Shown here piece by piece: positions 48,795 through 61,684 of a stretch of 64,000 nucleotides of DNA. The notes under the pieces were generated by a model that did no database searches, was not told the DNA's origin, and worked only from the letters and a program-made list of their open reading frames with translations. Origin of the DNA: Eggerthellaceae bacterium. Lineage in GTDB: Bacteria > Actinomycetota > Coriobacteriia > Coriobacteriales > Eggerthellaceae. Each line of letters begins with the position of its first letter. The first letter of the stretch is position 1. The position numbers and the translations under genes are program-made. The DNA is taken from positions 1,669 through 65,668 of the forward strand of contig JAILNP010000026.1 in assembly GCA_024691475.1 (NCBI GenBank), read 5' to 3'.

Positions 48795-50297
48795 CTAGTG
48801 CGTTTCCTCGAGCATGTCCATGAGCTCCTGCTTCGAGCTCACGCCGAGCTTGCGGTAGATGTGCGTGGTGTGCGTCTTTACCGTGCCCGTGGTTACGAAC
48901 AGGGCGTCGGCAATGTAGGGCAAGCTGCGTCCGCGCGCTAGATAGCGGTATACCTCTGCTTCGCGCTTCGTAAGGCCGTGCTCCTCGCAGATGCGCGTCA
49001 TGCGTTCTTCCAGGATGTCCTTTTCGCTGGTTTCCTCGTGTGGCGGTTCGACTGGTGTGGCAGACGTGCTTTCGGGGGTCGCATGAGTGGTCGATGCCAG
49101 GCTTTCCGTTTGGGCGATAAGCATGAAGAACAGCAGGAGCATGCTTGCCCCGCAGATGACGGAGAGCGTGGGGATGTCGCCGGGCAGCATTGCGGGCAGC
49201 TGCTTTCCCATGAGGTGTCCGCAGAGCACGACGCCTGAAATGAGGGCCTGGCCTACGGCGAATGCCAGCAGGGGAGAAAGCCCCTCTTCCTGGATGCTCT
49301 GGGTGATGACGACGTATACGATTACCTGCAGGAAGAACGCTGCGCCATTCGTGAACATGCCGCCTACGCCAAAGGCGCTTTCCCCGAACACCAGTATTCC
49401 CACAAGGCCTACCGCGGTGAACGACAGCGTAAGGCGGTAGAGGCTGGGCACGGATAGGGTGTCGTCGGAATAGGCAAGCGGCACAAGTGACATGGTGGCG
49501 ATGAGCGCGCAGATGATGGTGGCCATGCTGAAGAGCGTGGTGGCAAGCTCGTACGATGTTCCCATGAGGAACGAGCTCACCAGGTTGCCTACGAATGAGG
49601 CAGCTATCAGGATGGCGATCTGGCGCCAGGGCAGAAGGCGGGTCTCCCATGCGCCTGCACTTACTTCGCCCGGCATTTTCCCTGCCTGCGTCGTGGTGGG
49701 GAAGACGTCGAACGTTTGGGCGTGACGGGCACCCGCATCGATCCTCCAGAGCAGCCAGGACCCTATGGGCAGCAGCACGATGATGATGTCGTCGATGGGC
49801 GAGGGGATAAGGGGCACGACCAGGTATTCCAAGTATGCGAGCAGGAATGATATAACCACCAGCGGCCGCGTGCGCTTCGTTCCCAGGCTGAATCGGGCGC
49901 CCCATGCGCAGCTGAGCAGGGTAACGCTTATGCCGTCGATGGCGCCGCAAGCGATCATGAGCCCCTGCAGGTTGGCGTTGAGCGCAAATGATACGCCCAC
50001 GGAGGAGGTGCAGGTGGCAAGGGCCGCTGCCAACAGCACGCCCCGGTGCACGCGAATCGTTCGCAGGCGCGAGATGACGAGGAGCGTTATGGCGAAGAGG
50101 ACGACTACGCCTTGCGATGCGAAGAACCCATTCTCGAGGCCCACGTTCGTGGACGAATCGAATTGCGAGGGAAACATGGCGGGGCTGAGGTAGCAGAGAA
50201 AGCCCCACGCCCATAGGAAAGAGGACCCTACGCCTACGCGTAGCGTCTCTAGCGCGCCTTCCCATTGGGTTGACGCATGCGTCCCTTTCGATTGCAT
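48795..50297 (-). CDS. multi-TM LuxR-family transmembrane regulator
   Basis: About 12 TM, then LTKREAEVYRYLARGRSLPYIADALFVTTGTVKTHTTHIYRKLGV. GGAGG RBS before ATG 50297. Confidence 0.9.
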   Translation of the reverse strand: MQSKGTHASTQWEGALETLRVGVGSSFLWAWGFLCYLSPAMFPSQFDSSTNVGLENGFFASQGVVVLFAITLLVISRLRTIRVHRGVLLAAALATCTSSVGVSFALNANLQGLMIACGAIDGISVTLLSCAWGARFSLGTKRTRPLVVISFLLAYLEYLVVPLIPSPIDDIIIVLLPIGSWLLWRIDAGARHAQTFDVFPTTTQAGKMPGEVSAGAWETRLLPWRQIAILIAASFVGNLVSSFLMGTSYELATTLFSMATIICALIATMSLVPLAYSDDTLSVPSLYRLTLSFTAVGLVGILVFGESAFGVGGMFTNGAAFFLQVIVYVVITQSIQEEGLSPLLAFAVGQALISGVVLCGHLMGKQLPAMLPGDIPTLSVICGASMLLLFFMLIAQTESLASTTHATPESTSATPVEPPHEETSEKDILEERMTRICEEHGLTKREAEVYRYLARGRSLPYIADALFVTTGTVKTHTTHIYRKLGVSSKQELMDMLEETH

Positions 50298-50518
50298 GTA
50301 CTTGAATCCTCCCGCAATGCGATGGCGTTGCCGTGCGACCGTCGCTTTGTCCTTCGCCCATAGTAACGCATCGGCTTCGTCGAGGTTGTCCGAACGCGCT
50401 GAATTCACCTGCGAGTTTATGGTTTTCTACCCTTTCGGTAGATGCATCAGGCCCTCCTCGAGGGGCATGATGCGGGCAGTGGGCACGGGGAGGTGCCCAA
50501 AGGACAAGGAGGGAAAGA

Positions 50519-52273: not shown

Positions 52274-52467
52274 GCGTGCGTGAGGGCGTGGGCGTGAGCG
52301 GGGGACGGAGGTTTGTTCATGCAATGAGTAGGGGCTTTGCGTGAGCGAAACCGTGAACTAACCTCCGCCCCCGTTCACTCGTCCCTTGTTCGTGCTCTGC
52401 GCGTGCCGTATCATCGTGCCAACGCCATTCGGGGGCAGGGGAGCGTATGGGTTCACGGGAAAGCAAG

Positions 52468-53196
52468 ATGCGTCGTCCGAGCGTTCGTCGTGCTGCGCCA
52501 GGGGTCGATTCTGGTCGCTCTCTGGCCTTGGGCCTTGCGGTGATTGCGGTCTTGCTGGTGCTTGCCGTTGCCGGCATTGTCGTTACGTGCACTCAGCAGC
52601 CCAACGACCAGCCTGCGGACGGGGTCGTCACCGATGTTCGCGATGAAAGCGAGCCGCTTGAAGGCGATGATGACGACGATGCTGCCGACGAGGACATCGT
52701 CTCCCAGTACCTCTTCGCGCAAGGCCTCGACGCCGCGCATGTTACGGCCATCATGGGCAATATTCGCCAGGAAAGCGGTTTCGAGCCCAATGCATGCGAT
52801 GGGAAATACTATGGTCTGTTCATGCTCAGTGGCGATCGCTTTGAATCCCTGTACGCGTATGCGCAGGCCAAGGGTACAGCATGGAGTGACACGCGTACGC
52901 AGATCGAATTTGCCTACGGCGAGTTGTCGGGTAGCGGGGAGGCGGCCGATTACGCTGCCGCCTTGGATATGTACCTTGCGGGATACGACACGGCGCTTAA
53001 TGCCTTCAACGCATACGAGGGCGTAGATTCTGCAACCGAATACTTTGCCCTTGCCTACGAACGCTGCGTAGGGGGTAGCGATTATAGCGCCATCGCCAGC
53101 GAGCTGACCGGCGGAAAGTATACGTCGCTTCAGCAGCTTTCCAAGCGCCAGTCGTTCGCGGCGAGCTATTACGAGGGCTTTACTCAGAGCGAATAA
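52468..53196 (+). CDS. membrane-anchored phage-tail-lysozyme-like peptidoglycan hydrolase
   Basis: N-terminal TM, acidic linker, AAHVTAIMGNIRQESGFEP...YGLFM...QIEFAYGEL...FALAYER...R (phage tail lysozyme pattern). Confidence 0.72.
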   Translation: MRRPSVRRAAPGVDSGRSLALGLAVIAVLLVLAVAGIVVTCTQQPNDQPADGVVTDVRDESEPLEGDDDDDAADEDIVSQYLFAQGLDAAHVTAIMGNIRQESGFEPNACDGKYYGLFMLSGDRFESLYAYAQAKGTAWSDTRTQIEFAYGELSGSGEAADYAAALDMYLAGYDTALNAFNAYEGVDSATEYFALAYERCVGGSDYSAIASELTGGKYTSLQQLSKRQSFAASYYEGFTQSE

Positions 53197-53562: not shown

Positions 53563-53886
53563 CTACGCCAGCTTGGATTGCTGCTGTTCCTGTTCCATGG
53601 CATTGAGCTGATCGATGTAGTCGATTACTTGGGTTCCCAGCGGGGTTACGACGTAGCCGCTTCGCGCGCGGTACTTCTGAATGCACCCAACCGCAACCAA
53701 TGCCTGCATGAGCGGGTTCAGCTTTCCTTTGCTGACGTGGAAGAGCTCGGCGATCTCTTCCTGGCTCTCGCGGACTCGCTCACCATCCACCGTACCTACC
53801 TGTAGTTTGCTCAAGAGCTGAAGCAGGCGATAGGTGTCTGACGTGAGCAAGCCCACGAGGGTGTGTGTTGCGTTTAAGTGCTGCAT
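53563..53886 (-). CDS. small winged-helix DNA-binding protein
   Basis: YRLLQLL...SQEEIAELFHVSKGKLNPLMQALVAVGCI...GYVVTPLG; AT-rich upstream region. Start could be 53928. Confidence 0.65.
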   Translation of the reverse strand: MQHLNATHTLVGLLTSDTYRLLQLLSKLQVGTVDGERVRESQEEIAELFHVSKGKLNPLMQALVAVGCIQKYRARSGYVVTPLGTQVIDYIDQLNAMEQEQQQSKLA

Positions 53887-54194: not shown

Positions 54195-55271
54195 ATGGAT
54201 GTCTTGCTGATGATTCTGTATTGCGCGATTGTGCTTGGCATTCTCGTCGTGATACATGAGGGCGGCCATTTTCTGGCTGCGCGCGCATTTGGAGTGCGCG
54301 TCACCGAGTTCATGGTCGGTCTGCCCGGTCCGCGTGTGGGCTTCATGTTCAAGGGCACGCGCTTTGGCGTGACGGCTGTGCCCCTGGGTGGTTACGCCCG
54401 CGTTTGCGGCATGGAAGCGGGCGAAGAAAGCCCGCATTTGGCGGGCACGTTGGCCTTCGTACGCGAGCGCGGCGTCGTGAACATGGAAGATGTTGCCCAA
54501 GAGCTGGGCATTTCCGACGACGAGGCGTATCACGCGCTCGACGAGCTTTCGGAATGGGGAACCATCGCGGGCCCACGTAGGAGCGACAAGTACAACACGT
54601 ATCGCACGTTGTCGTCGAAAGCGGCGTGCGATGGCGGCTCGTACAAGGAAGGCGATCCGCGTCCGCCGCTTAGTGACGTGGAGGCGTTCCTGAGCGAGGA
54701 GCGCAGCAAGCAGTACCGCTCCCTGCCGTTTTGGAAGCGCTGCGTCATTCTGTTGGCGGGCCCGGGTGTGAACTTGCTGTTTGCCCTGCTCGTATTCGTG
54801 ATCGTCTATTCGTTCGTGGGTGTTGACGCCACGAATTCCGCGGGCGAGACCGTGCATATCCAGGTAGATCCACTGCGTGCCATCATGGCGGGGCTTAGCT
54901 ACATCGGCATGGTCATCATGGCCGTTGGGCAGCTATTCAATCCCGTAACGGCCGCTCAGACGGTTTCCGATTCCACGAGCGTCGTGGGCATCGCGGTGCT
55001 CTCGAAGAGTGCAGCCGAAGCTGGCCTCATTTCGTTCTCCATGTTCACGGCTATGATTTCCGTGTCGCTGGGGATTATGAACATGCTGCCCATCCCGCCT
55101 TTGGATGGCGGCCGCTTCGTGGTGGAAATCTACCAGCGCATTCGACGTCGCAACGTGGGGCAAACTGCCATAAATCGGTTGAGCATGGTGGGCATGGCCC
55201 TGTTCATGCTGCTGTTCGTGGTCATGCTCAATCAGGACATTCAACGGTTCATTTTCGGGAATTGGGGGTAA
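54195..55271 (+). CDS. rseP: site-2 intramembrane metalloprotease RseP (M50), PDZ-less, with cytoplasmic insertion
   Basis: IHEGGH, PLGGYARVCGM, LLAGPGVN, NMLPIPPLDGG. TATAAT at 54139. Confidence 0.92.
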   Translation: MDVLLMILYCAIVLGILVVIHEGGHFLAARAFGVRVTEFMVGLPGPRVGFMFKGTRFGVTAVPLGGYARVCGMEAGEESPHLAGTLAFVRERGVVNMEDVAQELGISDDEAYHALDELSEWGTIAGPRRSDKYNTYRTLSSKAACDGGSYKEGDPRPPLSDVEAFLSEERSKQYRSLPFWKRCVILLAGPGVNLLFALLVFVIVYSFVGVDATNSAGETVHIQVDPLRAIMAGLSYIGMVIMAVGQLFNPVTAAQTVSDSTSVVGIAVLSKSAAEAGLISFSMFTAMISVSLGIMNMLPIPPLDGGRFVVEIYQRIRRRNVGQTAINRLSMVGMALFMLLFVVMLNQDIQRFIFGNWG

Positions 55272-55274
55272 TCG

Positions 55275-56339
55275 GTGAAACCTTGTCAGCAAACGCGTCA
55301 GGTTATGGTTGGGTCGGTGCCCGTGGGCGGGGGCGCTCCGTGTGCCGTGCAGTCCATGGCGTGCATGCCCGCCGACGACGTGCAGGCTAATCTTAGCCAG
55401 ATTCGGCGTCTGGCCGATGCGGGCTGCGAAATCGTGCGTGTTGCCATTCCGCGACGCAATTGTCTCGACGCGTTCCAACGTATCTGCGAGGAGTCCCCGT
55501 TGCCCGTGGTGGCCGACGTTCATTTCGATGCGCAGATTGCCATCGAAGCAGCCCGTAGGGGAGCGGCGAAGCTGCGCATCAATCCCGGTAACATCGGGGG
55601 CCTGGCCAAGACTGACGCCGTCATCGATGCCGCAGGCGAAGCGGGCATTCCCATTCGCGTGGGAGTGAATGCCGGCTCGCTTGACGATGCCCTTGCCGAG
55701 CGCGATGACCTTACGCTGCCCGAAAAGCTCGTGGAGAGCGCCGCGGGCTACGTGGAGTACTTCGAGGGTAGGGGCTTTACCGACTTGGTGGTTTCGGCGA
55801 AGGCCAGCGACGTGCCCACCACGGTGGCTGCGTATCGCCTGCTTTCCCGTCGCTTGCCCCAGGTGCCGCTGCATATTGGCGTTACCGAAGCGGGCACGCT
55901 CTTCCAGGGCTTGGTGAAATCCGCTTCTGGCCTGGGCATCCTTCTGGAAGAGGGCATTGGCGACACCATGCGCATTTCGCTTACCGACGACCCGGTGCAG
56001 GAAATTCATGCCTGCTGGTCGTTGCTCTCGGCGCTGGGCCTGCGTCGTCGCAGCCCCGAATTGGTGAGCTGCCCCACCTGCGGCCGCTGCCAGGTGGACC
56101 TCATCGGCTTGGCCAAGGAAGTCGACGAACGCCTGCGCACTGTGGCAAACCCCATCAAGGTGGCCGTCATGGGCTGCGTGGTGAATGGCCCCGGCGAGGC
56201 GGCCGATGCCGATATTGGCGTAGCATGCGGGGCAGGGCAGGGCGTCATCTTCAAGGGCGGAAGCACCTTGCGCAAGGTTCCCGAAGACCAGATCGTCGAA
56301 GCGCTCATGGCCGAAATCGCCAAGCTTCCGCAGAAGTAG
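55275..56339 (+). CDS. ispG: HMBPP synthase
   Basis: VQSM, ADVHFD, RINPGNIG, IRVGVNAGSL, GIGDTMRISLT, SCPTCGRC, MGCVVNGPGEA. Confidence 0.97.
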   Translation: MKPCQQTRQVMVGSVPVGGGAPCAVQSMACMPADDVQANLSQIRRLADAGCEIVRVAIPRRNCLDAFQRICEESPLPVVADVHFDAQIAIEAARRGAAKLRINPGNIGGLAKTDAVIDAAGEAGIPIRVGVNAGSLDDALAERDDLTLPEKLVESAAGYVEYFEGRGFTDLVVSAKASDVPTTVAAYRLLSRRLPQVPLHIGVTEAGTLFQGLVKSASGLGILLEEGIGDTMRISLTDDPVQEIHACWSLLSALGLRRRSPELVSCPTCGRCQVDLIGLAKEVDERLRTVANPIKVAVMGCVVNGPGEAADADIGVACGAGQGVIFKGGSTLRKVPEDQIVEALMAEIAKLPQK

Positions 56340-56438: not shown

Positions 56439-58226
56439 ATGACTCAGATTATGCGCATGAGCGCGCTGTATGCGCCCACGCTTAAAGAAGTTCCCAACGA
56501 TGCCGACATCGTCAGCCACCAGCTGCTGCTTCGTGCTGGCATGATGCGCAAGAGCGCAACGGGCCTCTATAGCTTCCTGCCGCTGGGCTGGCGCGTCATC
56601 AAGAAGATCGAGAACATCGTGCGCCAGGAAATGGACGCCATCGATGCTCAGGAAATCATGATGCCCGAACTGCAGCCTTCCGAGCTGTGGCATGAGAGCG
56701 GCCGCTGGGACGACTACGGCCCCGAACTCATGCGCATGGAAGACCGCCACGGCCATGGCCTGTGCCTGGGCCCCACGCACGAGGAGCTCATTACCGACCT
56801 GGTGCGCAACGAGTTGAAGTCCTATAAGCAGCTTCCCCTTACGCTGTACCAGATCCAGTCGAAGTTCCGCGACGAGATTCGCCCGCGCTTCGGCCTCATG
56901 CGTAGCCGCGAGTTCATCATGAAGGATGCGTACAGCTTCCATGCAAGCCAGGAATCGCTGCAGCAGACGTACGACGACATGAGCGATGCCTACGCCCGCA
57001 TCTGCGAGCGCCTGGGCCTGGACTTCCGTCCTGTGCAGGCCGACTCGGGCCAGATTGGCGGTAGCGTTACGTGCGAATACCATGCTCTGGCCGACGCTGG
57101 CGAAGCCGAGCTTGCCAGCTGCACGTGCGGCTGGGCTGCGAATAGCGAAGTGGCCGCGTGCCTGCCGCATCCCACGGAATACGCGGAAACCGAACTGAAG
57201 AAGATCGAAACGCCGGGCGTGCATACCATTGCCGAGCTCGCCGCGTTCTTGAACTGCCCCGAAAGCTCTACCGTGAAGGCAATGGTGGGCAAGGACGCCG
57301 AGGGCAACCCCATTGCCCTGTTCGTGCCGGGCGACCACGAGCTGAACGAGCTCAAGGCCGAGCGTACCATCGATGGCTTTGCGCTTATGTCCGACGAGGA
57401 GCTCGAGGCAGCTGGTCTGCCCAAGGGTTCCATCGGCTGCGTGGGTCTGCCCCAGGGCGTGCGCATCGTTGCCGATAGCAGCCTGCAGGGCATTGCCCAT
57501 TGGGTGGTTGGCGCCAACGAAGACGGCTTCCACTATGTGGGTGCCGAGCAGGGTCGCGATTTCACCGTGGACGTATGGGCCGACCTGTGTACGGTGCGCG
57601 AGGGCGATACCTGCCCCGAGTGCGGCAAGCCGGTGAGCATGTGCCGCGGCATCGAAGTGGGCCAGGTGTTCCAGCTGGGCACGAAGTACAGCCAGAACAT
57701 GGGTGCCACCTACCTCGACGAAAACGGCAAGGAACAGCCGTTCATCATGGGCTGCTATGGCGTGGGTGTGTCTCGCTGCATGGCCGCCATCGTGGAGCAG
57801 CATAGCGACGAATACGGCATTGCCTGGCCTGCAAGCGTTGCTCCTGCGCACGTATGCGTGCTGCCTTTGGTGGTAGGCGACGACGTGGTTCAGCCGGTGG
57901 CCGAGCGAGTGGCGCGCGAGCTGGCCGAGCTGGGCGTGGAAGTGGTTCTGGACGACCGCAAGGAACGCCCTGGCGTGAAGTTCGCCGAAGCCGACCTCAT
58001 GGGCTGGCCGCTGCAGATCGTGGTGGGCAAGCGTGGCGTTGCCAACCAGGAGCTGGAGCTGAAGGTTCGCTCCACGGGCGAGAAGTCCACCATCTCCTTC
58101 GACGAGTACGCCGAGGCCCTGGCATTCGCCAAGCGCGCCAGCAAGCCCATTGCGTCCTTCCTCGAGCAGGCTGCCAACGTAAGGATGGAAGCGGCCGTTA
58201 CCACGGTTCGCTCCCAGATGAAATAG
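56439..58226 (+). CDS. proS: prolyl-tRNA synthetase (with INS editing domain)
   Basis: LGPTHEE, YQIQSKFRDEIRPRFGLMRSREF, GIEVGQVFQLGTKYS, MGCYGVGVSR. Confidence 0.98.
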   Translation: MTQIMRMSALYAPTLKEVPNDADIVSHQLLLRAGMMRKSATGLYSFLPLGWRVIKKIENIVRQEMDAIDAQEIMMPELQPSELWHESGRWDDYGPELMRMEDRHGHGLCLGPTHEELITDLVRNELKSYKQLPLTLYQIQSKFRDEIRPRFGLMRSREFIMKDAYSFHASQESLQQTYDDMSDAYARICERLGLDFRPVQADSGQIGGSVTCEYHALADAGEAELASCTCGWAANSEVAACLPHPTEYAETELKKIETPGVHTIAELAAFLNCPESSTVKAMVGKDAEGNPIALFVPGDHELNELKAERTIDGFALMSDEELEAAGLPKGSIGCVGLPQGVRIVADSSLQGIAHWVVGANEDGFHYVGAEQGRDFTVDVWADLCTVREGDTCPECGKPVSMCRGIEVGQVFQLGTKYSQNMGATYLDENGKEQPFIMGCYGVGVSRCMAAIVEQHSDEYGIAWPASVAPAHVCVLPLVVGDDVVQPVAERVARELAELGVEVVLDDRKERPGVKFAEADLMGWPLQIVVGKRGVANQELELKVRSTGEKSTISFDEYAEALAFAKRASKPIASFLEQAANVRMEAAVTTVRSQMK

Positions 58227-60004: not shown

Positions 60005-60040
60005 AAGCCGGGGAGTGCTGCGCCCCGGCTTTTCTATTTT
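60005..60040. terminator. terminator between convergent genes
   Basis: AAGCCGGGG...CCCCGGCTT-TTCTATTTT. Confidence 0.7.
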
Positions 60041-61494
60041 CTGCTCGCGCGCTGTTCCGAAACGTCTTCCACTAGGTCGATGAGCGATTGCTTTCCGTCG
60101 ACGCCCAGCTTCCGGTAGATGTTGCGCACGTGCGTCTTTACGGTGCTCTGAGACAGCGTGAGCTTGTCTTGGATGTAGGGAACCGAACGACCGTAGGCCA
60201 GATACAGCATGACCTCGCTCTCGCGGGCGGAAAGCGAATGCTCTTCGGCGAGCGAACTGCAGGCGTCTTCCAGGCTATCGTGATGATCGGGTTCCTGCAC
60301 GTCGATGAGCTGCAGGGCTTCGATGGATGTGAACACGAACGACTGGGCGAATGCCAAAAGCAGGGCGCAGAAGGCGAACAGGATGATGGTTGCCGCTTGA
60401 ATGCCCTGTTCGGAGACTTGCACCGTATAGCCTGCGGCAAGGTAGCCTGCGAGCGCGGCGAGCCATTCCGTGGCGCATGCACGCGCAAGCACGTCGAGGG
60501 GCGATCTGCCCGAACGCGATACCAAATCGGCGTTCAGGTACCACAGGAACAAGTCGAGCAGCACGAACCCCAGCGTAGCGAATGCGCAGGCGAACGCGTA
60601 GTATTCCCTGGGTACGATGAGGGCGAGGACAGTGCCCGCCATGAGGGCGAAGGTTCCCGCTTGGCTGAACCGCTTGAGCATGTGCGTGGGCGTAACGCGC
60701 GCGGCAATCGTGAAGGCCAGAATGGAGGCCGCGAGCGCGCCGAGCATCATGCACGAGGCTCCTCCCGTTGCCTGGCCCGCGAAATCCCATGCATAGAGCG
60801 CTCCGAGCGCGGCGCCCCAGGCAAAGCTTACGCAAATCATGAAGATGAGCAGGCGCGTGGGGGCCTTTCCGCTGGTGGGGTCGACGCGGCGGAACGACGG
60901 TGGCCGTTGCTTCGCGTTTCTGGTGCCTGCCAGGATGATGGTTCCCATAAGGGGCAGGGCGCAGACGATGGTGCATGCCGCGAGCGGGTGCATTGCGCTG
61001 AACAGGAAGTACAGTATGCCGGCCATGAGTGCCCCGGCGGTAAGGTGAATCATGACGCGTTCCGACCGAATGCGTGACCAGACGATGTTGCCGGCAATCA
61101 TGATGAAGGCGTTCGACATGCCCGCCAGGCAGGCTGCGATGGCGATGATGGGGATGCTGGAATAGGCAATGGCCGCAACGAGCAATATTGTCGCAAGCGA
61201 TTCCATGCCGCCGGCGACGATGATGGCGTTCCGATTGCGCGCAATGGTTGCGAAGCGGGTGGAGCGAATAAAGAACATGCACGTATACGCGATGGCGAGG
61301 CCTGCCATGAAGAGGGGGCGCGACCATGCCGAAATGGTGGGCGAGGGCGACTCGCTGTAGATTACGGTGCCGAAAACGACGCAGAAGAGCCATGTGTAAT
61401 GCGTGCCGAAGCCCAAAACCTCCCAGGCTCGATTAGCGAAGGTACGGCTCTTTTCGCCTCCGCTATCGCACGCAAGCAATGCGCTTTCTTTCAT
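60034..61494 (-). CDS. multi-TM LuxR-family transmembrane regulator
   Basis: About 12 TM, then LSARESEVMLYLAYGRSVPYIQDKLTLSQSTVKTHVRNIYRKLGV. GGAGG RBS. Confidence 0.9.
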   Translation of the reverse strand: MKESALLACDSGGEKSRTFANRAWEVLGFGTHYTWLFCVVFGTVIYSESPSPTISAWSRPLFMAGLAIAYTCMFFIRSTRFATIARNRNAIIVAGGMESLATILLVAAIAYSSIPIIAIAACLAGMSNAFIMIAGNIVWSRIRSERVMIHLTAGALMAGILYFLFSAMHPLAACTIVCALPLMGTIILAGTRNAKQRPPSFRRVDPTSGKAPTRLLIFMICVSFAWGAALGALYAWDFAGQATGGASCMMLGALAASILAFTIAARVTPTHMLKRFSQAGTFALMAGTVLALIVPREYYAFACAFATLGFVLLDLFLWYLNADLVSRSGRSPLDVLARACATEWLAALAGYLAAGYTVQVSEQGIQAATIILFAFCALLLAFAQSFVFTSIEALQLIDVQEPDHHDSLEDACSSLAEEHSLSARESEVMLYLAYGRSVPYIQDKLTLSQSTVKTHVRNIYRKLGVDGKQSLIDLVEDVSEQRASRK

Positions 61495-61684
61495 TGTTCC
61501 TCCCACCCGAATTGTACGCGAATTGGTGAAAAGGGGCATGTCGCAAAGGTCGACCTTTTAGGGTGAAATACCCAATTTTCGGTTATTCGTACTGTCTGGT
61601 CGTGGAATGCGGTGCGCGGGGGAGGCCATGATAGGGGCGTCCGCCGGAAGGGGGCGGACAAGGGAAATTCAAGGAGGGATTTAC

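What the first reader, a model, noticed from the sequence alone, without database searches (positions are those of the whole stretch)
54430..54715. RseP site-2 protease lacks PDZ and carries a winged-HTH-like insertion in its cytoplasmic loop
Seen: between PLGGYARVCGM and KRCVILLAGPGVN is an insert of about 95 aa containing LAFVRERGVVNMEDVAQELGISDDEAYHALDELSEWGTI, a classic helix-turn-helix-wing pattern. The usual extracytoplasmic PDZ region is reduced to about 15 aa. Established: RseP uses PDZ domains as a size filter and this loop for substrate capture. Inference: a protease gated from the cytoplasm, possibly binding nucleic acid or HTH-type substrates such as the many membrane LuxR proteins.
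Basis: partly seen in the sequence, partly recalled or inferred. Interest (0 to 1): 0.65.

Follow-up and report, generated by a model that had tools for sequence, protein, structure and literature searches.

The report
PDZ-less RseP protease with winged-helix insert
This gut actinobacterium's membrane-embedded RseP-type protease has lost its outer PDZ filter domain and carries a conserved, strongly acidic winged-helix domain on its cytoplasmic face. The organism has no alternative sigma factors, so the enzyme must do something other than the textbook sigma-factor activation.

Summary
Window 54195-55271 (+) encodes a 358-aa M50 site-2 protease with an intact HEGGH and NxxPxxxLDG. It sits in the rseP-ispG-proS arrangement.

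Residues 80-138 model confidently as a winged helix, and every top Foldseek hit is a winged helix. Only a 15-aa hairpin lies where the PDZ domain should be.

The two features are separable:
- The insert occurs in the RseP orthologue of every Coriobacteriia genome sampled with the profile, usually together with a PDZ. It was found in none of 370 other Actinomycetota.
- The PDZ is missing only in Eggerthellaceae, and the tree fits a single loss.

So the insert is not a replacement for the PDZ gate.

The domain is acidic in all 66 orthologues examined. Its "recognition" helix carries a net charge of -1 to -8 (one sequence not scored), so canonical DNA binding is unlikely.

This genus has a single sigma-70-family factor. 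No zf-HC2 anti-sigma factor was detected in any Coriobacteriales genome sampled. Classical anti-sigma substrates are therefore absent.

Bacillus RasP has an unrelated insert of about 95 aa at the same site.

My best reading is inferred, not shown. The domain is a protein or peptide docking platform under the active site of a sigma-independent housekeeping or processing protease. I class this as a new variant of a known kind, of moderate interest.

The parts
54195..55271 (+). RseP/Rip1-orthologous M50 site-2 protease gene, 358 aa, PDZ-less and carrying the insert
   Evidence: ORF. Pfam PF02163 at 171 bits. TIGR00054 RseP equivalog scores 143.3, just under its cut-off of 147.55. A GAAAGGA ribosome-binding site lies 11 nt upstream of the ATG.
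54255..54269 (+). HEGGH zinc-binding motif in TM1 (residues 21-25)
   Evidence: H21, E22, G24 and H25 are invariant in 56 homologues and across the class.
54300..54404 (+). Predicted four-stranded membrane-reentrant beta sheet (residues 36-70), ending in the PLGGY edge strand
   Evidence: AF2 strands E36-42, E48-52, E55-60 and E67-70. It aligns to solved RseP structures. The role of the edge strand is from PMC9401612.
54432..54608 (+). Acidic winged-helix domain (residues 80-138), inserted in cytoplasmic loop C1
   Evidence: AF2 topology. Foldseek hits to FtsK-gamma (TMt 0.82), Z-alpha (rmsd 1.9-2.4), MarR, ROK and ESCRT-II. Sub-threshold Pfam hits to wHTH families. Charge analysis.
54609..54674 (+). 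Variable linker of the insert (residues 139-160)
   Evidence: This is the insertion hot spot at query position 147. Total insert length ranges from 91 to 174 aa among homologues.
54675..54740 (+). Conserved pre-TM2 cytoplasmic helix (residues 161-182, ...E..QYRSLPFWKR)
   Evidence: AF2 gives H162-171. Y174 and R182 are invariant class-wide. An equivalent ...WKR/WQR segment is present in insert-less Actinomycetota and in RasP.
54741..54824 (+). TM2 (residues 183-210, AGPGVN motif)
   Evidence: Hydropathy, AF2 helix 179-208, and alignment to solved RseP.
54825..54869 (+). 15-aa extracytoplasmic beta hairpin at the site of the deleted PDZ (residues 211-225)
   Evidence: AF2 gives E210-213 and E219-222. 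In alignment A3, PDZ-bearing relatives show a clean gap of about 78 aa exactly here. Their PDZ scores above the Pfam cut-off.
54870..55022 (+). Post-PDZ (PCT-like) helices (residues 226-276)
   Evidence: AF2 helices 226-246, 250-260 and 263-276. The region aligns to RseP residues about 317-380.
55023..55112 (+). TM3 with NMLPIPPLDGG (residues 277-306), providing the third zinc ligand, D304
   Evidence: N296, P299, P301-G306 are invariant.
55161..55256 (+). TM4 (residues 323-354)
   Evidence: Hydropathy and AF2 helix 323-354.
55275..56339 (+). ispG (GcpE), starting 3 nt after the rseP stop. It is the syntenic marker of the rseP locus and is probably co-transcribed.
   Evidence: Pfam GcpE at 2.1e-137. 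Coordinates.
56439..58226 (+). proS-like gene, the usual downstream neighbour
   Evidence: ORF and sequence. The prolyl-tRNA synthetase identity was read from the sequence and not run against Pfam.

Best explanation
The gene is the organism's RseP/Rip1 orthologue, a catalytically intact M50 intramembrane metalloprotease. Two independent lineage-specific changes have reshaped it.

1. An ancestor of the class Coriobacteriia acquired an insert of about 90-130 aa in cytoplasmic loop C1. It lies between the substrate-binding edge strand and the conserved pre-TM2 helix. Its core is a winged-helix fold that has kept a strongly acidic surface.

2. Later, in the ancestor of Eggerthellaceae, the single extracytoplasmic PDZ domain was excised cleanly, leaving a short hairpin.

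Inferred mechanism. The winged helix is not a DNA-binding module. It is a protein or peptide docking platform hanging directly under the active-site compartment. It elaborates the acidic cytoplasmic region that in E. coli RseP and SpoIVFB contributes to substrate binding. It most likely captures the positively charged cytoplasmic juxtamembrane ends of type II substrates, such as signal-peptide remnants, small membrane proteins or membrane-anchored regulators.

This genus has one sigma factor and no detectable anti-sigma factor. The enzyme therefore works here as a sigma-independent housekeeping or processing protease. Without a site-1-dependent signalling substrate to protect, the PDZ size filter was dispensable.

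What is shown: the fold, the position, the charge, the distribution, the PDZ loss and the lack of sigma/anti-sigma pairs. What is inferred: what the domain binds, and which substrates the enzyme cuts.
For: Identity and an intact active site.

Winged-helix fold. Sub-threshold hits to TrmB, PafC, MarR_2 (2.2e-6), IclR and FtsK_gamma.

The insert is under selection. Within Eggerthellaceae it has many invariant positions: G93, M97, A111, A114, L115, L118, W121, G122, P127, D131, N134. L118 and W121 are invariant class-wide.

Distribution of the insert:
- All 32 Coriobacteriia genomes in the profile search matched at E<=4e-11.
- None of 370 other Actinomycetota had it in an M50 protein. The weak hits there fell in frames of other sizes; the four strongest I read are IclR-type regulators.
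- Their RseP has a C1 tail of 23-30 aa.
- An exhaustive phmmer search of 1.84 billion representative proteins found 34 hits. About 30 have M50 motifs or insert flanks at the same position, and the few others were not examined.

PDZ:
- It scores above the Pfam cut-off in five non-Eggerthellaceae relatives.
- The TM2-to-LDG distance is 120-121 aa in 45 Eggerthellaceae-type sequences and 195-200 aa in 21 others.
- The PDZ-bearing sequences form one side of a 100/100 branch.

Charge: net 0 to -12 for the domain and -1 to -8 for helix 3.

No sigma/anti-sigma substrates:
- There is one Sigma70_r2 hit in the own genome and in two same-genus genomes, one of them closed.
- zf-HC2 was found in 0 of the Eggerthellaceae and other Coriobacteriales genomes sampled.

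The region after the edge strand is acidic and implicated in substrate binding and water recruitment (PMC9401612).
Against: - No binding partner or substrate was identified.
- I could not inspect model coordinates, so the packing of the domain against the active-site face rests only on high pLDDT and pTM 0.81.
- Larger Eggerthellaceae genomes have 5-13 sigma factors yet share the PDZ-less enzyme. Loss of sigma signalling therefore cannot be the general cause of PDZ loss.
- zf-HC2 is a short profile, and other anti-sigma families were not screened.
- The acidic surface varies in exact residues across the class. That fits electrostatic capture, but it also fits a merely structural role.
Confidence: 0.55

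Rival explanations
1. The winged helix is a docking site for a soluble cytoplasmic partner, such as an activator, an inhibitor or an ATPase/adaptor. That partner would switch the protease on or off from the cytoplasm, as B. subtilis RasP depends on the EcsAB ABC transporter.
For: Bacillus RasP has an unrelated insert of about 95 aa at exactly the same site, residues 73-168. The best Foldseek match of the full model is a RasP-EcsA integrative model, 9a6w. Acidic winged helices such as those of ESCRT-II and DDRGK1/PCI are classic protein-protein modules. The wing (GPxKxDxYNTYR) is highly conserved in Eggerthellaceae.
Against: EcsB is absent from all 21 relatives searched. The two inserts share no detectable sequence or fold, and 9a6w is not among the top 50 hits of the insert-only model. 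No conserved neighbouring gene points to a partner. The gene upstream of rseP in this window is not part of the usual block.
Confidence: 0.2
2. The insert is a structurally tolerated passenger, a captured transcription-factor fragment. Its only role now is to fold and to keep the C1 region stable, with no ligand of its own.
For: C1 is an insertion hot spot. RasP, one other actinobacterial RseP (L144) and several unchecked first-reader notes from other genomes carry different inserts there. The linker varies from about 15 to 85 aa. The profile gives weak hits to IclR-type regulators.
Against: The domain has been retained in every Coriobacteriia genome sampled. Within Eggerthellaceae its conservation is comparable to that of the catalytic core. 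Its acidic character is maintained across the whole class despite 25-45% identity.
Confidence: 0.13
3. The domain recognises HTH-type membrane regulators, the 10-12-TM LuxR family, and the protease processes or turns them over. The cytoplasmic domain would take over the gating role of the lost PDZ.
For: There are 46 GerE-type HTH genes in this 2.15-Mb genome. Two flank the locus in the window, with 9-11 hydrophobic segments and a C-terminal HTH. Large expansions of TM-LuxRs are reported mainly in Eggerthellaceae genera, the same clade that lost the PDZ (PMC9734109). An acidic winged helix could in principle mimic DNA for a DNA-binding domain.
Against: The insert predates the PDZ loss and coexists with a PDZ in most of the class. 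The HTH follows the last TM helix, the opposite orientation to the type II substrates of group I S2Ps (own knowledge). DadR lacking its TM domain is expressed but inactive, and that paper mentions no processing. The co-distribution rests on a single evolutionary event.
Confidence: 0.07
4. The winged helix binds nucleic acid, either DNA at the membrane or an RNA. It would tether the protease or couple it to transcription or translation.
For: The fold is the commonest prokaryotic DNA-binding fold. The nearest structural neighbours include DNA-bound MarR, ROK, Z-alpha and FtsK-gamma domains.
Against: Helix 3 has a net charge of -4 to -8 in Eggerthellaceae and never above -1 anywhere. The whole domain is net acidic in nearly all orthologues. 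No Pfam HTH family reaches its gathering score.
Confidence: 0.05

Closest known systems
E. coli RseP and its solved orthologues (PDB 7W6X, 7W6Y/7W6Z, 9J82/9J83): group I site-2 proteases
   Same: It has the same four-TM M50 core: HExxH in TM1, a membrane-reentrant beta sheet with a PLGGY edge strand, an AGPxxN TM2, post-PDZ helices, and NxxPxxxLDG in TM3. The region after the edge strand is acidic and cytoplasmic.
   Different: It has no PDZ domain, where E. coli has two. In place of the 5-12-residue connection it has about 100 residues containing a winged helix. No sigma-E/RseA-type pathway is available in this genus.
Bacillus subtilis-group RasP (YluC), represented by P0156
   Same: It is an RseP orthologue with a large cytoplasmic insert at exactly the same C1 position, about 95 aa at residues 73-168. 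From my own knowledge, it is known for sigma-independent jobs as well, namely FtsL and signal peptides.
   Different: The RasP insert shows no sequence or fold similarity to the winged helix. RasP keeps one PDZ. Its partner system EcsAB is absent from Coriobacteriia.
RseP orthologues of Atopobiaceae, Coriobacteriaceae and environmental Coriobacteriia (for example Olsenella, Collinsella; loci L096-L121)
   Same: They carry a homologous winged-helix insert at the same site, with L118, W121 and the acidic character conserved, and the same core.
   Different: They retain a single PDZ domain that scores above the Pfam cut-off. The protein in the window lacks it.
Mycobacterium-type Rip1 and other Actinomycetota RseP
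   Same: They belong to the same phylum and the same orthologous gene.
   Different: They have a short C1 tail of 23-30 aa and a PDZ. No winged-helix insert was found in any of 370 genomes.
Group III S2Ps (SpoIVFB, M. jannaschii S2P)
   Same: They are PDZ-less M50 proteases that carry a cytoplasmic accessory domain, a CBS domain. This is a precedent for control or substrate contact from the cytoplasmic side.
   Different: Their core topology differs (six TM helices). Their accessory domain is C-terminal and has a CBS fold. They are only distantly similar in sequence (E 0.002-0.3).

Membership tests
Peptidase M50 / site-2 protease | HExxH zinc motif in the first core TM helix | tested here: met
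   HEGGH at residues 21-25 is invariant in the homologues.
Peptidase M50 / site-2 protease | NxxPxxxLDG motif supplying the third zinc ligand | tested here: met
   NMLPIPPLDGG at residues 296-306 is invariant.
Peptidase M50 / site-2 protease | Profile match above the curated cut-off | tested here: met
   PF02163 scores 171.4 bits against a cut-off of 27.2.
Peptidase M50 / site-2 protease | Proteolytic activity within the membrane | not testable with these tools
   This needs a cleavage assay.
Group I S2P (RseP/RasP/Rip1 type) | One or more extracytoplasmic PDZ domains between TM2 and TM3 | tested here: not met
   No PDZ family matches at E<=1. The TM2-to-LDG distance is about 120-122 aa against 195-202 aa in PDZ-bearing relatives. 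Alignment A3 shows a clean gap of about 78 aa.
Group I S2P (RseP/RasP/Rip1 type) | Four-TM core with a membrane-reentrant beta sheet and post-PDZ helices, most similar to RseP structures | tested here: met
   Best PDB sequence matches are RseP orthologues at 2.6e-26 to 1.5e-19. Foldseek top six hits are RasP/RseP. AF2 topology.
Group I S2P (RseP/RasP/Rip1 type) | NCBIfam RseP equivalog score | tested here: not met
   TIGR00054 scores 143.3 bits, narrowly below its cut-off of 147.55, and matches in three pieces.
Group I S2P (RseP/RasP/Rip1 type) | Orthology by descent: nearest relatives are PDZ-bearing RseP, and the locus is conserved | tested here: met
   It is followed by ispG and proS. It forms one family with the PDZ-bearing Coriobacteriia RseP. 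The only other M50 in the genome is a 243-aa minimal type.
Winged helix-turn-helix DNA-binding domains | a1-b1-a2-a3-b2-b3 fold | tested here: met
   DSSP on two AF2 models. Foldseek probability 1.00 to FtsK-gamma, Z-alpha, MarR, ROK and SmtB.
Winged helix-turn-helix DNA-binding domains | Membership of a curated HTH family, with a score above the gathering threshold | tested here: not met
   Only sub-threshold hits were found: TrmB, PafC, MarR_2, IclR, FtsK_gamma and DDRGK.
Winged helix-turn-helix DNA-binding domains | Basic recognition helix and/or wing able to contact DNA | tested here: not met
   Helix 3 has a net charge of -1 to -8 in the 65 of 66 orthologues where it was scored. The domain is net 0 to -12.
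Winged helix-turn-helix DNA-binding domains | Demonstrated nucleic-acid binding | not testable with these tools
   This needs EMSA or anisotropy with the purified domain.
RasP-type, EcsAB-dependent S2P | Large cytoplasmic insert at the C1 site | tested here: met
   BLASTP places both inserts between GG(Y/F)xRxxG and W(K/Q)R.
RasP-type, EcsAB-dependent S2P | Homology of the insert, and presence of EcsAB | tested here: not met
   The inserts show no similarity. PF05975 EcsB was found in 0 of 21 relatives, while the Bacillus and Lactococcus controls were positive.

The most novel reading that the evidence does not exclude
Coriobacteriia may have moved substrate selection by their RseP to the cytoplasmic side. 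The acidic winged helix would act as a receptor for the cytoplasmic parts of specific membrane proteins. In Eggerthellaceae it would have become the sole selector once the PDZ filter was deleted. It would then couple the protease to turnover or processing of that family's hugely expanded polytopic membrane regulators (the 10-12-TM LuxRs), or to another clade-specific substrate class. That would be a form of regulated intramembrane proteolysis that needs no site-1 cleavage and no sigma factor.
Probability: 0.1. Interest if true: 0.8.

Novelty: new variant of a known kind. Interest (0 to 1): 0.5.

Why it matters
RseP-type proteases are the textbook case of two-step regulated intramembrane proteolysis. 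In that scheme the PDZ domains enforce prior site-1 cleavage and the product is a freed sigma factor.

Here a whole family of important gut bacteria (Eggerthella, Adlercreutzia, Slackia, Gordonibacter relatives) keeps the orthologue without any PDZ. At least one genus keeps it with no alternative sigma factor at all. That makes it a natural system for asking what a group I S2P does apart from sigma control, and how substrates are admitted without the filter.

The conserved acidic winged helix sits precisely at the cytoplasmic region that structural work has flagged as contributing to substrate binding but has not explained.

Genetic tools now exist for E. lenta (PMC9734109), so deletion and charge-reversal experiments are feasible. 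No paper found in the searchable library describes this architecture.

Tried and rejected
- **EcsAB analogy.** I tested whether the winged helix could be an EcsA dock as in RasP. EcsB is absent from 21 relatives, so I rejected it as a direct analogy.
- **Homology with the RasP insert.** BLASTP and the insert-only Foldseek search show none.
- **Occurrence outside the class.** The profile search of 370 other Actinomycetota returned only weak hits, none in an M50-sized frame. The four strongest that I read are IclR regulators. The exhaustive single-sequence search gave 34 hits, about 30 of them with M50 motifs or insert flanks at the same position. Other phyla were covered only by that single-sequence search.
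- **Anti-sigma substrates.** zf-HC2 is absent from the Coriobacteriales sampled, and there is one sigma factor in the genus.
- **Rooting the PDZ-loss tree with RasP.** The branch is too long (5.55) and was misplaced. Only the unrooted 100/100 split is used.
- **Literature.** Searches for a described winged-helix S2P or an Eggerthella RseP found nothing. I found no paper behind PDB 9a6w in the library.
- **Model coordinates.** They are not exposed to the Python box, so I could not measure contacts between the domain and the core.
- **LuxR topology.** My first script chose wrong frames for many loci. I rely only on the full-length cases there and on the two window genes.
Full report
**What is there**

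The ORF at window 54195-55271 (+) encodes a 358-aa protein. It matches Pfam Peptidase_M50 over its whole length, at 2.4e-50 and 171 bits against a cut-off of 27.2. It scores just under the NCBIfam RseP equivalog cut-off, 143.3 against 147.55, and matches that model in three pieces.

Its best solved relatives are the RseP orthologues of Kangiella, Aquifex and E. coli, at 2.6e-26 to 1.5e-19. HEGGH (residues 21-25) and NMLPIPPLDGG (296-306) are present and invariant among homologues.

The gene has a plausible ribosome-binding site. It is followed 3 nt later by ispG (GcpE, 2.1e-137) and then by a proS-like gene. That is the downstream half of the usual rseP neighbourhood.

The genome is 2.15 Mb and 95.6% complete. 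It holds only one other M50 gene, a 243-aa minimal type without accessory domains.

- **Membrane segments.** Hydropathy and AlphaFold2 (56-sequence alignment, mean pLDDT 85.6, pTM 0.81) give TM1 at 1-31, a four-stranded beta sheet at 36-70, TM2 at 179-208, a short hairpin at 210-222, helices at 226-276, TM3 at 278-295 and TM4 at 323-354.
- **Size of the insert.** 107 residues lie between PLGGYARVCGM and KRCVILLAGPGVN. Solved RseP proteins have 5-12 residues between the corresponding aligned blocks.
- **Fold.** Residues 82-138 fold as helix, strand, helix, helix and a beta hairpin, with pLDDT 92-97. An independent insert-only model (26 diverse sequences, pLDDT 89.8) gives the same topology.
- **Structural neighbours.** The 50 best Foldseek PDB matches of the insert-only model are nearly all winged-helix proteins or domains at probability 0.97-1.00. 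They include the ROK and MarR DNA-binding domains, Z-alpha (rmsd 1.9-2.4 A over about 62 columns), FtsK-gamma (TM 0.82 on the target), eS25, SmtB and ESCRT-II.
- **Sequence.** Members give only sub-threshold hits, but to many winged-helix families: TrmB, PafC, MarR_2 at 2.2e-6, IclR, FtsK_gamma and DDRGK.
- **PDZ.** No PDZ family matches at E<=1.

**The two features have separate histories**

A single-sequence search with the insert across 301 genomes of the class hit M50-sized frames of two size classes. Frames of 355-405 aa occur in the window's own family. Frames of about 420-520 aa occur in the other families.

I extracted the proteins. In the own family the distance from TM2 to LDG is 122-123 aa. 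In all other families it is 198-202 aa. Five of those other proteins carry a PDZ above the Pfam cut-off, as well as the insert.

Named genomes give the same split:

| Group | n | TM2-to-LDG distance | PDZ | Insert length |
|---|---|---|---|---|
| Eggerthellaceae-type (Hugonella, Eggerthella, Adlercreutzia, Slackia, Senegalimassilia, Ellagibacter, Enteroscipio, Berryella, Parvibacter, Aveggerthella) | 45 | 120-121 aa | absent | 102-153 aa |
| Olsenella, Paratractidigestivibacter, Collinsella and environmental Coriobacteriia | 21 | 195-200 aa | present | 91-128 aa |

The class-wide alignment shows a clean gap of about 78 aa exactly where the PDZ lies. In a maximum-likelihood tree the 21 PDZ-bearing sequences form one side of a 100/100 branch, which fits a single loss. 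The RasP outgroup sits on too long a branch to root the tree.

A profile of the winged-helix part matched all 32 Coriobacteriia genomes in a phylum-wide sample at E<=4e-11. In 370 other Actinomycetota it gave only weak hits, none in an M50-sized frame. The four strongest that I read are IclR-type regulators. The RseP of those genomes has a C1 tail of 23-30 aa and a PDZ.

An exhaustive phmmer search of 1.84 billion representative proteins with the insert found 34 hits. About 30 have M50 motifs or insert flanks at the same position, and the few others were not examined.

The insert is therefore an old, class-specific acquisition. The PDZ loss is a later, family-specific event. The insert cannot have arisen as a substitute for the PDZ gate.

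**What the domain is likely to do**

Within Eggerthellaceae the domain is about as conserved as the catalytic core. G93, M97, A111, A114, L115, L118, W121, G122, P127, D131 and N134 are invariant in 56 sequences. L118 and W121 are invariant across the class. A neutral passenger is therefore unlikely.

The domain is acidic everywhere. Its net charge is 0 to -12, mostly -6 to -11. Helix 3, which contacts DNA in canonical winged helices, reads (S/T)DDEAYxALEELxEW. Its net charge is -4 to -8 in Eggerthellaceae and -1 to -6 elsewhere. This argues strongly against canonical nucleic-acid binding.

The position is informative. The domain follows directly after the edge strand that binds substrate by strand addition. 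Imaizumi et al. 2022 note three things about the cytoplasmic region after this strand. It is acidic in many S2Ps. It forms a small globular domain in E. coli RseP. It probably helps bind substrate or recruit water, and mutating those acidic residues impairs SpoIVFB (PMC9401612).

The winged helix plus a variable linker is inserted into that region. The conserved pre-TM2 helix (E..QYRSLPFWKR) is retained after it.

I therefore read the domain as an enlarged acidic landing platform under the active-site compartment. Electrostatic capture of the basic cytoplasmic ends of type II substrates is my inference, and I did not test it.

**Cellular context**

The window's genome has a single Sigma70_r2 match, in a 426-aa frame that I take to be the primary sigma factor. 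Two same-genus genomes, one of them a closed chromosome, also have exactly one. So do several other small Eggerthellaceae genomes. Larger ones have 5-13.

The zf-HC2 anti-sigma domain was found only in non-Coriobacteriales families of the class. It was found in no Eggerthellaceae, Atopobiaceae or Coriobacteriaceae genome sampled.

In this genus the enzyme therefore cannot be a sigma-factor activator. From my own knowledge, sigma-independent roles are established for E. coli RseP and B. subtilis RasP: clearance of signal peptides and small membrane proteins, and cleavage of FtsL. Such substrates have no ectodomain to trim. That gives a rationale for why the PDZ size filter could be lost, but it is only a rationale. 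PDZ-less enzymes also occur in relatives with several sigma factors.

**Comparison with RasP**

The best Foldseek match of the full model was an integrative RasP-EcsA model, 9a6w.

It proved 98% identical to the database cluster representative P0156. RasP has an insert of about 95 aa at exactly the same C1 site, residues 73-168. It shows no similarity to the winged helix.

EcsB is absent from 21 Coriobacteriia relatives, while the Bacillus and Lactococcus controls were positive.

So C1 is a recurrent site for lineage-specific cytoplasmic modules, and the Coriobacteriia module is a different one. One other actinobacterial RseP (L144) carries yet another insert there. Unchecked first-reader notes from other genomes describe acidic, low-complexity, PDZ-like and HTH-like inserts at this site.

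**The LuxR idea**

The genome holds 46 GerE-type HTH genes. The two in the window (48795-50408 and 60034-61539, both on the minus strand) have 9-11 hydrophobic segments followed by a C-terminal HTH. This is the 10-12-TM LuxR family described in E. lenta by Dong et al. 2022 (PMC9734109).

Their expansion coincides with the PDZ-less clade, but that rests on one evolutionary event.

Three points argue against them as substrates:
- The HTH lies C-terminal to the last TM helix, opposite to type II substrates.
- DadR without its TM domain is expressed yet inactive.
- The paper does not mention processing.

I keep this only as the low-probability novel case.

**Verdict**

This is a new variant of a known kind: a group I-derived RseP orthologue that fails the defining PDZ criterion and carries a class-specific acidic winged helix in C1.

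The fold, site, charge, distribution, single PDZ loss and absence of sigma/anti-sigma partners are shown by tool results. The ligand of the domain and the enzyme's substrates are inferred.

I found no description of this architecture in the searchable literature.

Noticed in passing
whole genome (G000) and same-genus genomes G670 and G671: There is only one sigma-70-family region-2 match per genome, in a 426-aa frame that I take to be the primary sigma factor. This includes a closed 2.4-Mb chromosome. The genus appears to run on a single sigma factor, and several other small Eggerthellaceae show the same.
   Followed up: partly
window 48795-50408 (-) and 60034-61539 (-): Two polytopic membrane LuxR-type regulators, with 9-11 hydrophobic segments and a C-terminal GerE HTH, flank the locus. 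The 2.15-Mb genome has 46 GerE hits. They belong to the 10-12-TM LuxR family described for E. lenta.
   Followed up: partly
window 53563-53886 (-): A small ORF of about 107 aa lies in a lower-GC stretch (0.55 against about 0.61) just upstream of rseP and divergent from it. It gives only sub-threshold winged-helix hits (Crp-like, PadR, IclR; E 0.004-0.06). The longer 241-aa reading of this frame overlaps the rseP start and is probably not real.
   Followed up: partly
window 52447-53196 (+): A 249-aa protein with an N-terminal membrane or signal segment and a phage-tail-lysozyme/SLT-type domain (PF18013 at 1.8e-19) sits where uppS-cdsA-dxr would usually precede rseP.
   Followed up: no
L144 (G376:C3:7898-8590): A non-Coriobacteriia actinobacterial RseP carries a different, apparently helical insert at the same C1 site (...PLVAALPVVHDAEDARRWWTALDEELAHRGVPADLAVRIRD...). 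This is another independent use of the hot spot.
   Followed up: no
L054, L082, L086, L088, L090, L092 (genome contigs records): Contigs labelled Bacteroidaceae, Christensenellaceae, Alloprevotella, Hallerella, Succinivibrio and Oscillospiraceae ('cleanbin' assemblies) carry Eggerthellaceae-type rseP genes at 53-62% identity to the window. Those that could be placed in the tree nest inside Eggerthellaceae clades. The bins look contaminated or mislabelled.
   Followed up: partly
P0081 (412 aa homologue): It contains an internal repeat of about 42 aa covering the ...YIGMVIQAVVGLFNPATAAQTVSDSTSIVGIAVMSK... segment before TM3. This is either a tandem duplication or an assembly artefact.
   Followed up: no
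Coriobacteriia genomes outside Coriobacteriales (families f6, f9, f11-f13, f15, f17-f19): zf-HC2 anti-sigma factors occur only in these mostly environmental families. None was found in the gut-associated order. This suggests wholesale loss of ZAS-type signalling at the base of Coriobacteriales.
   Followed up: no
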